8,093 nucleotides of DNA from Amoeboradix gromovi X-113 (Eukaryota; Fungi; Sanchytriomycota): assembly GCA_018985225.1 (NCBI GenBank), contig JADGIF010000467.1, forward strand, positions 1-8,093, given 5' to 3'. Both the position numbers and the translations under genes were made by a program. Of the stretch, positions 1 to 8,093 are shown one piece after another. The notes beneath the pieces were generated by a model. It was not told where the DNA came from, searched no databases, and saw only the letters and a list, made by a program, of their open reading frames with translations. The stretch's first letter is position 1; every line of letters starts with the position of its first letter.

Positions 1-174
1 ACCTTTTGCTTAGATGCTCAAAGACCTCATATATTTGAAAGAGATGTAGGGTCTTCTAGTTTTATTTTGAAGAGGGGATTGAAAGCAATGAAAGAAAATT
101 GGTACTATAGAAGATCTTTTATTAATGATAGCATTTCATCCGTATGGAGCACCTTTAAAAACGAGTTAGTCTAG
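1..174 (+). CDS. 3' end of a Fanzor (eukaryotic TnpB-like, probably Fanzor1-type) ORF, partial
   Basis: Frame +1 is open from base 1 to TAG 172-174: TFCLDAQRPHIFERDVGSSSFILKRGLKAMKENWYYRRSFINDSISSVWSTFKNELV*. With copy 2 upstream sequence (EYRLRKCTFC) this resembles the Fanzor C-terminal pattern ..LxxCxxC....RDxxxxxxI (second Zn knuckle + RuvC-III Asp). Whether the upstream part is intact cannot be seen. Confidence 0.6.
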   Translation, partial: TFCLDAQRPHIFERDVGSSSFILKRGLKAMKENWYYRRSFINDSISSVWSTFKNELV

Positions 175-193
175 TTTTTATATTTGGTGTCCC
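1..193 (+). mobile_element. Right part of a TIR transposon carrying a Fanzor/TnpB-like C-terminus (copy 1, truncated by window start)
   Basis: Colinear with 6400-6592 over 193 nt and with the reverse complement of 7997-8093. Ends in the TIR ...gagttagtctagtttttatatttggtgtccc (163-193). Confidence 0.85.
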
Positions 194-469
194 AAATAAA
201 AGATAAGACCAGCAAGGTGAAGGAAAACGCGGATAAACTGTTAGAATTCTTTGCCAATAAAAGATTATATGCAAACACTGGAGGATAGAGACATGTATAC
301 ACATCTATTAGTCCTGAATAGCGGAAAAGGAAATTGGTCTAAAATTAAACTATTTGAAGAAATTGAGTGGTATGTTGAACAATGGGATGAAAAAGAAGAT
401 ATTGTTGTCGAGAAAGAGTTTATTGACTCAATGAAATTCAATTTAACTGTTGAACTGATAGCACAATAG
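194..469 (+). pseudogene. Possible disrupted host coding fragment of unknown product
   Basis: Protein-like reading (IKDKTSKVKENADKLLEFF, frame +1) starts right at the transposon end and continues after an apparent frameshift near 250 into the 251-469 ORF (TTG start only). No family recognised. Confidence 0.25.
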
Positions 470-519
470 ACAATTAACTACTACATTTTAATCTCACTCA
501 ATACATGTAATCAAAACAT

Positions 520-603
520 GGAACACCGAATATAAAAAACTACACAATAATTATGATTCGGTCGACTAAAAATAACTGACCTAGTTTTCATGTTTGATAT
601 TTT
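520..603. mobile_element. Degenerate ~84-bp mini-MITE made of two inverted TIR relics of the same family
   Basis: From 520, ggaacaccgaatataaaaaactacacaa resembles the TIR gggacaccaaatataaaaactagactaa. 567-603 taaaaataactgacctagttttcatgtttgatatttt aligns to the copy-2 right end with one gap and only transition mismatches. Confidence 0.55.
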
Positions 604-2440: not shown

Positions 2441-2990
2441 TTTCGACATTTTTTAATTGCAAGATTAAGCATATACTGGCTTGACATAAATATTGGTCTC
2501 TAGCATAATTGAAACGTATTTCAATTCATCATTTTACTCATTATTTGAATAGTACAAATAGGGCAGCATTTCATCAGCCTACTAGACCAACCGATTCTAA
2601 ATATTTCTACAGTTGGGATTCTCACATGCTAAAAGTAGAAAACAAACACATTGGCAACAATTTATACTTTGAGTCAATTTTTATCTTCATGTAAATCACA
2701 GCTTTTGAACTCTGCAAAATAAATCAATCATCGATAATTGTGTATGTTTCTATGCACCACTTTTATAGTTTTTCAAATATCTTAAATATTCGATATTCTT
2801 GATTTCCCAAATAGTAAATGGAATCAATGGATGTAATTCTGAATATGACAGATCTAAATAAATAAGTAATAGTTACAACATACATCAACGTTGAGGAACC
2901 GGTCCAAGAATAGAACAATAAGATGTCCTTCAATGCCTATAAAGAGATCAACGATAAATAAGCCTTAAAAACATTTATTTAATAATTTTT

Positions 2991-3173
2991 ATGTGGGTTG
3001 TTCCTACCAACTGTGCAAAAACACGATATCTCAACACTTCGTATGAATGTAAAAGTGGCAATCTTAAGAAAACCAATCTGTAGGGTTACAGTTGTACCAA
3101 CTGTCATATTAAGATAGATAGAGACCGTAATTCAGCAATGCTAGTTCTCTGTGGAAAGTCTCAATTTTCTTAG
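2991..3173 (+). pseudogene. TnpB/Fanzor2-like C-terminal remnant (zinc ribbon + RuvC-III)
   Basis: Frame from 2991 reads MWVVPTNCAKTRYLNTSYECKSGNLKKTNL*GYSCTNCHIKIDRDRNSAMLVLCGKSQFS*. This matches the TnpB/IS605-OrfB signature (Y/N)TSxxCx(x)CG...YxCxxC...DRDxN(A/S)A. It has an internal TAG (3081-3083) and Ser in place of one Cys. Confidence 0.75.
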
Positions 3174-3365
3174 AAATCAGGACTTTTAACGAGAAGTACA
3201 TGGAAACAATAAACTAAATAAAATGTTTGTGAATAGTACATAATGAATGTGGCAAGTTTTGTTCACAACTCCTAACTGGTTTTGATCTACGAGAAGATCA
3301 AGAGCTTCCACAGAGCGACTGACATCTGATCTGTTACACCAGGTACTCTCGCTTTGACCAGTCAG
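3121..3365 (+). ncRNA. Candidate structured RNA (putative omegaRNA) overlapping the 3' end of the TnpB/Fanzor remnant
   Basis: Long interrupted helix between ~3121-3180 and ~3276-3350, including perfect ctctgtggaa (3147-3156)/ttccacagag (3306-3315) and attttct (3164-3170)/agaagat (3292-3298). Many deviations are U.G wobbles on the + strand. Boundaries uncertain. Confidence 0.45.
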
Positions 3366-3548: not shown

Positions 3549-4544
3549 TTAAACCTGTATCAAGCCGTTCGAAGAATTTTTGGATGACACTCTCGTTTTC
3601 CATTCTCTTTTATAAGGCGTATATCGAACGGTGCAAAATAAAAGTGCGCTATCGATGATGCATCGCACCAAAACAAGCACAAAATCAATTACAGACGCGT
3701 ATTGCCTTGTGAGCTGATTTGATGGAATGTGGAAAGATTCATTAGTGATTAGTTTTGTTCCCACATCGCTAATTTTGTAACTAAAAAGGCTTTGTTTAGA
3801 TGATGTGCTAAACGACTTTCTTCGAGACGAGCTCGATATCTTGTTACTACTTGATACACTTCCAAAATACAGGCCAAGCTGTTTGCACATCGCTAAATTT
3901 GCTATACTGGGACTGTTTTTTAGTGGGTTGTTTGATATATCACAGTTGTCATAAGTCAAACGGCTGGAATCAGTAACAGCGAGGCTGGTAATTCCATTAT
4001 CAGTTATGTAGAGTTTTCTAGGCTTATTAAGCGAGATAGGGCCTGTGAAATGGTTACCGTAACTTTGTTCGGAATAACCAATGACAAGCTCAAATAGACT
4101 TGTTGGCAAGTTGACCACATTTCCGGACAACAAATTGCCTTCAACCCATAGGACTTTCAGGTTTGTCGGTAGGTTATCAGAAATAGTACCGTTCAGTCTG
4201 TTTTCTTGTAAATAGATGTATTCTAAAGTCGTTGGAAACAAGTCCGGTATTTTTCCGATTATCTTGTTGTAGTTCAAATCAAACGTGACTAGAAACTCTG
4301 GAAGCGCCGTACTATTAATACTTCCGTTGAGATTCCCGTATTTTAATGGGAGGTCTCCTCTCCATATAATTGATGTTACTGAGAAAGTATTACAAGTGAC
4401 ACCATCCGCTGTGCAGCAATCTTTTCTAATTTGAGTGTAGGTGTTTGGATAACTTATATCCATGCCAAGCTCTTTTGCCAAGTTGCTGACTTTTTGGCAA
4501 TCTTTTACTGCTCCAAATATAAAATAAACCAAGAAAGAAACCAT
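3549..4544 (-). CDS. Leucine-rich-repeat receptor-like membrane protein (plant-type LRR)
   Basis: Hydrophobic N-terminus; DCCTADGVTC cap like plant LRRNT; repeats LxxxxLxxNxLxGxI (LVTFDLNYNKIIGKIP, LEYIYLQENRLNGTIS, LKVLWVEGNLLSGNV); Ser-rich stalk; hydrophobic segment near the C-terminus; short basic tail; no kinase domain. Confidence 0.85.
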   Translation of the reverse strand: MVSFLVYFIFGAVKDCQKVSNLAKELGMDISYPNTYTQIRKDCCTADGVTCNTFSVTSIIWRGDLPLKYGNLNGSINSTALPEFLVTFDLNYNKIIGKIPDLFPTTLEYIYLQENRLNGTISDNLPTNLKVLWVEGNLLSGNVVNLPTSLFELVIGYSEQSYGNHFTGPISLNKPRKLYITDNGITSLAVTDSSRLTYDNCDISNNPLKNSPSIANLAMCKQLGLYFGSVSSSNKISSSSRRKSFSTSSKQSLFSYKISDVGTKLITNESFHIPSNQLTRQYASVIDFVLVLVRCIIDSALLFCTVRYTPYKREWKTRVSSKNSSNGLIQV

Positions 4545-4851: not shown

Positions 4852-5097
4852 ATGAAATTGTTAGCTTTCCTATTAGTTGCTGTTCAAGCTGGAACTTATC
4901 CTCTTCCTCCAAGTGGTCAGAAGCCAACTGGAGAAATTAACACCTCAGTACCGAAACCATCTACTGAACCTGGTAGAATCATGGACAGTCTCAAATATTG
5001 CACATCCTGGATGAAATATTACAATGCTCAGGGTTATAGCATCACAACTTCATCTTGGTGGTTTACCGATTACTGCATGAAGAAATTATACCAATGA
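4852..5097 (+). CDS. Small secreted protein (81 aa), unknown function
   Basis: Signal peptide-like MKLLAFLLVAVQA, Pro/Thr/Ser-rich linker, aromatic-rich C-terminal domain with two Cys; ATG in aaaATG context. Confidence 0.75.
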   Translation: MKLLAFLLVAVQAGTYPLPPSGQKPTGEINTSVPKPSTEPGRIMDSLKYCTSWMKYYNAQGYSITTSSWWFTDYCMKKLYQ

Positions 5098-6094: not shown

Positions 6095-6153
6095 TACCAA
6101 TAAATGACTAGCTGTTTACAACAAAATCTTTTTATTCAGTCTTGATTAACATT

Positions 6154-6592
6154 GGGACATCAAATATAAAAACTGGACTAACTCTCTTAAATAGTTTGAA
6201 TCATTATTTCAAGTGTATTAACCGATAGTAAATTAGACTAATCTAGTTAGTTCAAGTAAATTATTTTAGTATAAAAGCTTCTCATCCATCAAAATCTTAG
6301 AAACAATGACTAATATGAAGAAGAGAAAACAAAAATATGTTATACGAAAGGTGATAAAAAGAAAAACAAACAGATAAAGAATATCGTCTAAGAAAATGCA
6401 CCTTTTGCTTACACTCAAAGACCTCGTACACTTGAAAGGGATAGTGGGTCATCTTGTTTATTTTAAAGAGGTGAATGACATTTATGACAGAAAATTGGTT
6501 TGAAAGAAGGATTTTTATTAATAACAGTATTTCCTCCTTATGGAGTACTTCCTTTAAAAACGACTTGGTCTAGTTTTTATATTTGGTGTCCC
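6154..6592 (+). mobile_element. Complete 439-bp non-autonomous TIR element (copy 2) carrying a decayed Fanzor C-terminus
   Basis: 31-bp TIRs at 6154-6184 (gggacatcaaatataaaaactggactaactc) and 6562-6592, 27/31 identical. Interior 6400-6592 is homologous to 1-193. Flanks att|...|ttt, so the TSD is not clean. Confidence 0.9.
6307..6573 (+). pseudogene. Frameshifted Fanzor-like C-terminal fragment inside copy 2
   Basis: MTNMKKRKQKYVIRKVIKRK / DKEYRLRKCTFCL / QRPRTLERDSGSSC / ILKR*MTFMTENWFERRIFINNSISSLWSTSFKNDLV*. Relative to copy 1 it has -2 and -1 nt deletions and GGA>TGA. Confidence 0.6.
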
Positions 6593-6625
6593 TTTTGTTT
6601 TACATACCGCTGAAACATCGTTATT

Positions 6626-7811: not shown

Positions 7812-7996
7812 AAAAGTAAATTTAATTCGTATTTTCTAACATGCGACTTGATAGCAAGAAGATCAATTTTGAGTCTTAAATAGGGGCCTGGTGTTTTATA
7901 TGCTTTTGCAACAAATTACATACGCAAAAGCGCAAACTGCCACTTTACATCAAAATACTAGGAGATAATATTGTTTTGTATTAATTGTGTAGAGTT

Positions 7997-8093
7997 GGGA
8001 CACCAAATATAAAAACTAGACTAACTCGTTTTTAAAGAAGGTGCTCCATACGCAGGAAATGCTATCATTAATAAAAGATCTTCTATTATACCA
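7997..8093 (-). mobile_element. Right end of the same Fanzor-carrying TIR element, inverted (copy 3, truncated by window end)
   Basis: Reverse complement matches 100-193 with few substitutions and one 3-nt indel; translates WYNRRSFINDSISCVWSTFFKNELV*. Confidence 0.88.

What the first reader, a model, noticed from the sequence alone, without database searches (positions are those of the whole stretch)
100..213. Conserved right-end hairpin followed by copy-specific flank: predicted omegaRNA scaffold + guide
Seen: in all three copies the terminal ~45 nt can fold as gcacc(149-153)/ggtgt(186-190) enclosing taaaaac(156-162)/gttttta(174-180); copy 2 changes (gtact) keep pairing through G.U. Conservation stops abruptly at CCC. 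The following 20-mers differ: aaataaaagataagaccagc (194-213), ttttgttttacataccgctg (6593-6612), aactctacacaattaataca (7996-7977, minus). Inference: each insertion would produce an RNA with the same scaffold and a different guide aimed at its own empty site, i.e. a dispersed guide repertoire.
Basis: partly seen in the sequence, partly recalled or inferred. Interest (0 to 1): 0.78.

Follow-up and report, generated by a model that had tools for sequence, protein, structure and literature searches.

The report
Fanzor-derived MITE with guide-RNA hairpin
The three repeats are right ends of a short, multicopy jumping element that still carries broken pieces of a Fanzor-type nuclease gene, and their terminal hairpin is likely the end of its guide-RNA scaffold, an arrangement already described in another early-branching fungus.

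Summary
[quoted passage not shown] The abrupt end at CCC and the differing flanks are therefore what any TIR transposon shows, and do not by themselves indicate a guide. The element is an internally deleted Fanzor gene: it keeps the N-terminus and a zinc-finger/RD tail, and longer relatives have the TNB domain and Fanzor's shifted glutamate. Named relatives are from the sanchytrid Amoeboradix gromovi. The hairpin needs a right-end-only arm outside the TIR and parallels the terminal stem of the SpuFz1 omegaRNA, so a scaffold role is likely. Not shown: expression, covariation (0 of 24 pairs), an intact nuclease, or a transposase. The G.U pairs are minority C-to-T changes, and guides would start after the 2-bp duplication. 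Ghost loci as a guide repertoire were proposed for Spizellomyces in 2023. Verdict: new member of a known kind.

The parts
1..174 (+). Copy 1: C-terminal remnant of a Fanzor-type gene (end of zinc finger, E-R-D motif at 37-45, stop codon 172-174 inside the TIR); runs off the window's left edge
124..135 (+). Copy 1: candidate upstream 4-bp stem-loop with one G-C/A-U double change in copy 2; not above chance
144..195 (+). Copy 1: terminal hairpin (5' arm 144-162 outside the TIR, 3' arm inside it); predicted 3' stem of the omegaRNA scaffold
163..193 (+). Copy 1: right TIR, 31 bp
   Evidence: (I4)
194..195 (+). Copy 1: AA, probable target-site duplication (left side not in window)
   Evidence: inference from copy 2
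196..210 (+). Copy 1: host flank, predicted guide of about 15 nt (untested)
   Evidence: inference from PMC10711439 and PMC10432273
6152..6153 (+). Copy 2: left TT, probable 2-bp target-site duplication
   Evidence: chance identity of two intergenic dinucleotides 0.08
6154..6184 (+). Copy 2: left TIR; no equivalent hairpin (z +0.96 and +0.94)
6306..6374 (+). Copy 2: remnant of the basic Fanzor N-terminus (KKRKQK, NLS-like)
   Evidence: compare P0001-P0004 and P0012
6376..6573 (+). Copy 2: broken zinc-finger/RD tail of the Fanzor gene, directly after the N-terminal remnant (internal deletion of nearly the whole gene)
   Evidence: P0001 40-104, E 9e-20, within-window search
6540..6592 (+). Copy 2: terminal hairpin including the right TIR 6562-6592
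6593..6609 (+). Copy 2: right TT (6593-6594), then predicted guide (untested)
   Evidence: inference
7997..8093 (-). Copy 3: right end of a third copy (TIR 7997-8027, hairpin 7995-8049); runs off the window's right edge
7980..7996 (-). Copy 3: AA (7996-7995), then predicted guide (untested)
   Evidence: inference

Best explanation
The repeats are right ends of a short non-autonomous TIR transposon (MITE) that carries internally deleted remains of a Fanzor-type gene, and the terminal hairpin is likely the 3' stem of its omegaRNA scaffold, which would join each copy's own flank as a guide. Shown: TIRs, one complete 439-bp copy with matching TT flanks, the gene remnants, many copies, and a right-end-only hairpin in folding predictions. 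Inferred: (1) a DDE transposase supplied in trans moves the copies; (2) transcription through the right end gives an RNA made of scaffold, 2-bp duplication and about 15 nt of flank; (3) an intact Fanzor1 supplied in trans would load it and cut the element-free allele next to a motif from the left flank; (4) repair from the occupied chromatid would restore the insertion. Steps 2-4 are untested, and no intact nuclease gene was found.
For: Fanzor origin: the window remnant is 82-86% identical to four EukProt mini-proteins. A profile of these reaches P0005 (298 aa, E 9e-24) and P0006, which match Pfam Cas12f1-like_TNB at E 3e-5. The top ESM Atlas clusters are TNB-bearing clusters of Mucoromycota and giant viruses, score 0.96-0.97. 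P0005 has a glutamate six residues before the zinc finger and the TS-xx-C4-RD motif, the Fanzor marks given in PMC10711439 and PMC3627910. Hairpin: it lies on the gene's sense strand, downstream of the RD motif. It is absent at the left end although the TIR is shared. Sense folds 2.7 kcal/mol better than antisense in all three copies. Length variants among X1 contigs fall in the internal loop (3-nt insertions behind 151/152). Relatives read the arm in different frames (..FKNELV stop here..SLKTT and ..SLIKT in P0007 and P0005), which fits a nucleotide-level constraint. The SpuFz1 omegaRNA also ends in a long stem that closes on the target duplication (Table S3 of PMC11423790 read by eye; PMC10711439). 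Spu-1 ghost RNAs were functional in cells (PMC10432273).
Against: No two-sided change in the hairpin (0 of 24 pairs, 3 sequences). Copy 2 does not beat arm-shuffled controls (273 of 2000). The antisense strand also folds well (z -3.71 for copy 1), so a DNA palindrome is not excluded. The 7-bp SL1 said to be common to three Fz1 RNAs (PMC11423790) has no convincing equivalent: the 4-bp candidate is matched by 14% of column shuffles and 149 of 500 shuffles. No full-length Fanzor was found, none of the sequences covers the RuvC-I DPG, the Pfam scores (24.4 and 24.6 bits) are below the 26.3 cut-off, and P0007 has lost the RD aspartate. A review notes that DDE excision already leaves a break, so the benefit of the nuclease may be small (PMC13565253).
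Confidence: 0.6

Rival explanations
1. The hairpin is an inherited omegaRNA stem but only a passenger in these copies. It survives because deletion derivatives keep their ends, the MITE spreads by transposase alone, and no working Fanzor or guide RNA is left.
For: No intact Fanzor found; the longest same-species protein, P0006, lacks both ends. The MITE also keeps non-structured sequence such as the 5' region and N-terminal codons. Copy 2 has a weakened hairpin.
Against: The arm is somewhat better conserved than the adjacent remnant. The protein searches are weak for long proteins and no genome was available.
Confidence: 0.22
2. The structure is a DNA-level subterminal palindrome: a second, inverted copy of the TIR motif that binds transposase and has no RNA role.
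For: The 5' arm is in effect an inverted, gapped copy of the TIR's outer 20 bp. Both strands fold. Transposon ends with unequal subterminal sites are common (recalled).
Against: The G.U-tolerant changes and better sense-strand energies favour one strand. The left end lacks the site. A second TnpB/Fanzor-like family in the same window, with no TIR found, also ends in a hairpin of about 50 nt after its RD motif.
Confidence: 0.13
3. The pairing is chance (A-run against T-run in AT-rich DNA), and the arm is conserved only because it coded for the Fanzor C-terminus.
For: The inner helix is six A-U pairs and one C-G pair. The ORF overlaps the whole arm. 41 of 3800 random window stretches fold with the TIR as well as the real arm does.
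Against: About 1% by chance for copies 1 and 3. Relatives end the protein in different frames over the arm. The copies are broken genes.
Confidence: 0.05

Closest known systems
Spu-1 ghost elements and SpuFz1 of Spizellomyces punctatus (PMC10432273, passages; PMC3627910, parts 1-4 of 7)
   Same: About 30-nt TIRs, 2-bp duplication, short non-autonomous copies that keep the right-end region, a long terminal stem overlapping the TIR, basic N-terminus (KKKQKL there, KRKQKL in P0001-P0003), no transposase inside the element; proposed guide repertoire in trans.
   Different: Here the TIR begins GGG and flanks are AA/TT rather than CA+TA. No sequence likeness to the SpuFz1 omegaRNA is visible by eye. 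The ORF runs through the predicted scaffold and stops inside the TIR, whereas SpuFz1 has about 75-80 nt between stop and end. The copies keep both protein termini rather than lacking the ORF. No intact gene or RNA has been shown.
SfAV and related lepidopteran-virus Fanzor1 TIR elements (PMC10711439, passages)
   Same: TIR and target duplication predicted to be part of the scaffold; RNA extends about 15 nt beyond the duplication; host transposase unknown.
   Different: Those carry intact Fanzor1 with 13-bp TIRs and 4-bp duplications (PMC3627910), and their expression was measured.
ISL2EU / PHIS-group DNA transposons (PMC4122938, passages)
   Same: 2-bp, AT-rich duplication (typically AT). The consensus of loose flanks in X1 begins A-T (agreement only 0.41-0.45).
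   Different: No transposase was found, so the superfamily is not established. The window's own flanks are AA, AA and TT/TT, not AT.

Membership tests
Fanzor (TnpB-like OMEGA nuclease) | [TS][TS]xx-C4 zinc finger-X(5,50)-RD motif (PMC3627910) | tested here: met
   Complete in relative P0005; the window keeps the tail with E-R-D at 37-45; P0007 has RG
Fanzor (TnpB-like OMEGA nuclease) | RuvC-II glutamate six residues before the zinc finger (Ealt; PMC10711439) | tested here: met
   P0005 E205 and P0007 E15; P0006 by eye; deleted in copy 2, outside the window for copies 1 and 3
Fanzor (TnpB-like OMEGA nuclease) | RuvC-I DPG motif | tested here: inconclusive
   No retrieved sequence covers it; P0005 and P0006 appear to start just after it (by eye)
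Fanzor (TnpB-like OMEGA nuclease) | TNB domain / fold | tested here: inconclusive
   Pfam PF07282 E 3e-5 but below cut-off; Atlas top hits TNB; model pLDDT 42.8, too poor for fold search
Fanzor1 (versus Fanzor2) | Placement in the Fanzor1 clade | not tested
   No reference sequences were held for a tree. TIR host element, 25-28 aa zinc-finger spacer and Atlas neighbours are leads only
Fanzor1 omegaRNA | Terminal stem that includes TIR and target duplication, next to the guide | tested here: met
   Predicted fold only: hairpin in 3 of 3 copies; the first duplication base extends the stem in 2 of 3
Fanzor1 omegaRNA | Upstream 7-bp stem-loop SL1 (PMC11423790) | tested here: inconclusive
   Two weak candidates (106-123 and 124-135), neither above chance
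Fanzor1 omegaRNA | Expressed small RNA ending about 15 nt beyond the end; RNA-guided, TAM-dependent cleavage | not testable with these tools
   Needs small-RNA data and a bench assay
MITE / non-autonomous TIR transposon | Short, TIR-bounded, target duplication, no transposase, many copies | tested here: met
   439 bp, 31-bp TIRs, TT/TT in the one complete copy; 879 of 69,711 X1 contigs laid on 95-215; remnants on 8 different EukProt contigs
Spu-1 family | Spu-1 IR with CA upstream and TA duplication | tested here: not met
   Flanks are AA, AA and TT/TT; copy 2's left flank ends CATT; a different family that works alike
ISL2EU (PHIS) | 2-bp duplication, typically AT | tested here: inconclusive
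   One complete copy with TT/TT; weak A-T consensus in X1 flanks
ISL2EU (PHIS) | THAP-DDE transposase plus YqaJ exonuclease ORF | not tested
   No autonomous element or genome available

The most novel reading that the evidence does not exclude
A compact sanchytrid genome holds hundreds or more guide-RNA-only copies from two unrelated Fanzor/TnpB-derived families. One of them rides on a GGG-ended, 2-bp-duplication (ISL2EU-like) transposon not reported with Fanzor, and has a TnpB-like overlap in which the whole scaffold lies inside the nuclease ORF. Together the copies form an expressed, genome-wide guide library served in trans by a few intact nucleases.
Probability: 0.2. Interest if true: 0.6.

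Novelty: new member of a known kind. Interest (0 to 1): 0.33.

Why it matters
If true, it extends Fanzor ghost loci to an early-branching fungal lineage that I did not find in the Fanzor papers searched, and probably to another host transposon group. A high-copy family in a small genome would give the statistical power to test the still-open proposal that ghost omegaRNAs are kept by selection and protect their insertions. The principle itself (TIR element, right-end scaffold, flank as guide, ghost repertoire) is published.

Tried and rejected
No whole genome was held, so copies could not be collected for covariation. Rfam gave nothing at gathering level (3 chance-level hits elsewhere). DNA pattern scans found 0 loci in metagenome contigs, viral contigs and prokaryotic genomes. 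Protein-based locus scans found none in viral contigs. The 3 metagenome loci L001-L003 match at the same weak level; L003, the one I opened, is an iron-sulfur subunit next to a molybdenum-type oxidoreductase gene, so all three were dropped as false positives. A search for proteins of 523-2000 aa found no full-length Fanzor (weak evidence). P0011 is an unrelated Cys-rich repeat protein and was dropped. PDB sequence searches gave no Fanzor hit. NCBIfam gave only a weak guided_TnpB hit for P0007, E 0.035, 1 of 5 proteins. The AlphaFold model of P0005 was low-confidence, and the Foldseek and VIA searches were uninformative. No RNA holder was listed, which is no evidence either way. The bacterial promoter scan does not apply to a eukaryote. 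Rejected: Spy (no duplication, needs TTT on every right flank) and Tc1/mariner (TA duplication). The scan's earlier notes held nothing on this sequence. The second family's remnant has no ESM Atlas comparison, so its Fanzor1/Fanzor2/TnpB placement is open.

Full report
Setting. The window is intron-poor eukaryotic DNA (36% GC). It encodes the complex I 49-kDa subunit (1125-2432), an LRR-type protein, a TPT-family transporter and a coiled-coil protein. Three of its proteins are in the collection with EukProt as source and names withheld. All eight named relatives of the repeat's coding remnant are EukProt proteins of the sanchytrid Amoeboradix gromovi, from eight different contigs, so the host is probably that species or close kin. 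No genome was held.

Observation. Every quoted piece is at the stated place. Over the last 97 alignment columns the copies are 79/94, 90/94 and 81/97 identical. The terminal 50-53 nt fold into the described hairpin in all three copies, with z -2.88, -1.39 and -3.81. Keeping the TIR and shuffling only the 5' arm, 25, 273 and 9 of 2000 shuffles fold as well, and 41 of 3800 other window stretches do. The hairpin is therefore above chance in two copies and not in copy 2.

What the repeat is. Copy 2 is a whole element, 6154-6592 (439 bp), with 31-bp TIRs that are 27/31 complementary and TT on both sides. Copies 1 and 3 continue with AA. A 2-bp duplication rests on this one complete copy; chance identity is about 0.08. 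Contigs of DNA run X1 show the family is abundant: 879 of 69,711 records lie on 95-215. Summed depth reaches about 499,000 over the TIR, against 23-34 for single-copy contigs. Groups of 24, 12 and 18 contigs run on into other flanks behind 194, 197 and 198. The tool warns that depth is not copy number; dozens of loci are shown and hundreds are likely. The sharp boundary and variable flanks are thus explained by transposition alone.

Fanzor origin. Frame +1 of 1-174 reads as the end of a zinc finger, an E-R-D motif and a tail that stops inside the TIR. It is 82-86% identical to four mini-proteins that join a basic N-terminus to the same tail; copy 2 has the same two pieces, broken. A profile reached P0005 (298 aa) and P0006 (256 aa). 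Both match Pfam Cas12f1-like_TNB at E 3e-5, just under the cut-off, and P0005's nearest Atlas clusters are TNB proteins of Mucoromycota and giant viruses. P0005 has the TS-xx-C4-RD motif of PMC3627910 (parts 1-4 of 7 read). It also has the glutamate six residues before the zinc finger that marks Fanzors in PMC10711439 (passages). Against: no full-length protein was found, RuvC-I is not covered, PDB and NCBIfam searches were blank or weak, and the fold model was unusable. Fanzor1 rather than Fanzor2 is a lead, not a tested result.

Is the hairpin an omegaRNA stem? For: it is on the gene's sense strand at the right end only, and the left end shares the TIR but has no such fold (z about +0.95). 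Sense is 2.7 kcal/mol better than antisense in each copy. The insertions listed in X1 are 3-nt ones in the internal loop, and the common substitution at 148 is at the bulge (that table is filtered and lists only 5 substitutions, one of which, at 160, breaks a pair). P0005 and P0007 end in peptides that fit the same arm read in another frame (their DNA was not seen). Published Fanzor1 RNAs include TIR and duplication in a terminal double-stranded stem and extend about 15 nt beyond (PMC10711439). SpuFz1 has a 75-nt scaffold of two stems (PMC10432273, passages), and its listed RNA ends in such a stem by eye (PMC11423790 Table S3). Against: 0 of 24 consensus pairs have a two-sided change. The two G.U pairs are minority C-to-T changes. 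The antisense strand also folds (z -3.71). The 7-bp SL1 common to three Fz1 structures (PMC11423790 section 5) has only weak candidates: one 4-bp stem with a G-C/A-U change is matched by 14% of column shuffles and 149 of 500 shuffles. Three sequences give little power either way.

Mechanism. Shown: a MITE derived from a Fanzor-type gene. Inferred: a trans DDE transposase moves it; read-through transcription yields scaffold plus duplication plus about 15 nt of flank; a trans Fanzor cuts the element-free allele; repair from the occupied chromatid restores the copy. This restorative homing is shown for IS605/IS607 TnpB, and the same review notes that DDE excision already leaves a break, which may lessen the benefit (PMC13565253, passages). 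I put this reading at 0.6, a passenger relic at 0.22, a DNA palindrome at 0.13 and chance or coding at 0.05.

Comparison and novelty. It works like the Spu-1 ghosts: 134 ghost loci, functional ghost RNAs and an explicit guide-repertoire proposal (PMC10432273). It is not a Spu-1 member. Differences are the GGG-ended TIR, the AA/TT flanks (ISL2EU has 2-bp, typically AT, duplications; PMC4122938, passages), and an ORF that overlaps the whole predicted scaffold. Paper searches found nothing for Fanzor with chytrid and terminal inverted repeat, with ISL2EU or with Sanchytriomycota. Amoeboradix searches listed only general papers, seen as listings. The species names were absent from the searchable supplements of three Fanzor papers. 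One PDF was unreadable, tables may list accessions only, and subscription papers and Repbase were not searched. Earlier notes of this scan show the same kind of finding in other genomes, one marked as in print. Verdict: new member of a known kind, interest 0.33.

Noticed in passing
window 2815-3197 (+): A second multicopy element (summed X1 depth 1,572-5,466 in these bins) with a broken TNB/RD tail (Pfam PF07282 E 9.6e-5 with X at the stop) and a terminal hairpin at 3145-3195 (z -2.65, 5 of 200 shuffles). No TIR longer than 7 nt was found. Probably another Fanzor/TnpB-derived ghost family.
   Followed up: partly
window 3189-3197 joined to 6153/6154 and 7992/7996 in X1 contigs: In several X1 contigs the end of the second family is followed within about 25 nt by a TIR of the first, and TIR ends also follow each other closely (tables 5 and 5c). 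This may reflect crowding in short intergenic gaps or an insertion preference.
   Followed up: no
window 519-540, 692-711, 743-772: Degenerate TIR-like relics at single-copy depth (D3, D6, I12, I13; 692-711 by eye), perhaps older copies of both families.
   Followed up: partly
window 251-469 (+): 72-aa ORF without a Pfam match; X1 contigs show a diverged second copy over 306-364.
   Followed up: no
window 6148-6153: The left flank of copy 2 ends in CATT, one base from the SpuFz1 TAM CATA (PMC10432273); single case, may be chance.
   Followed up: no
window 3549-4544 (-): 331-aa ORF with a signal-like N-terminus and weak LRR matches. Its C-terminal part may be broken or run on, since it reaches the neighbouring low-complexity region.
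   Followed up: no
window 4852-5097 (+): 81-aa ORF with a signal-peptide-like start, a Pro-rich linker and two Cys; no Pfam match; possible small secreted protein.
   Followed up: no
P0005, P0007, P0009, P0013: After the RD motif this family has G/A/V-S-S/A-x-F-I where TnpB/Fanzor proteins usually have N-A-A-x-N-I (recalled consensus); effect on activity unknown.
   Followed up: no
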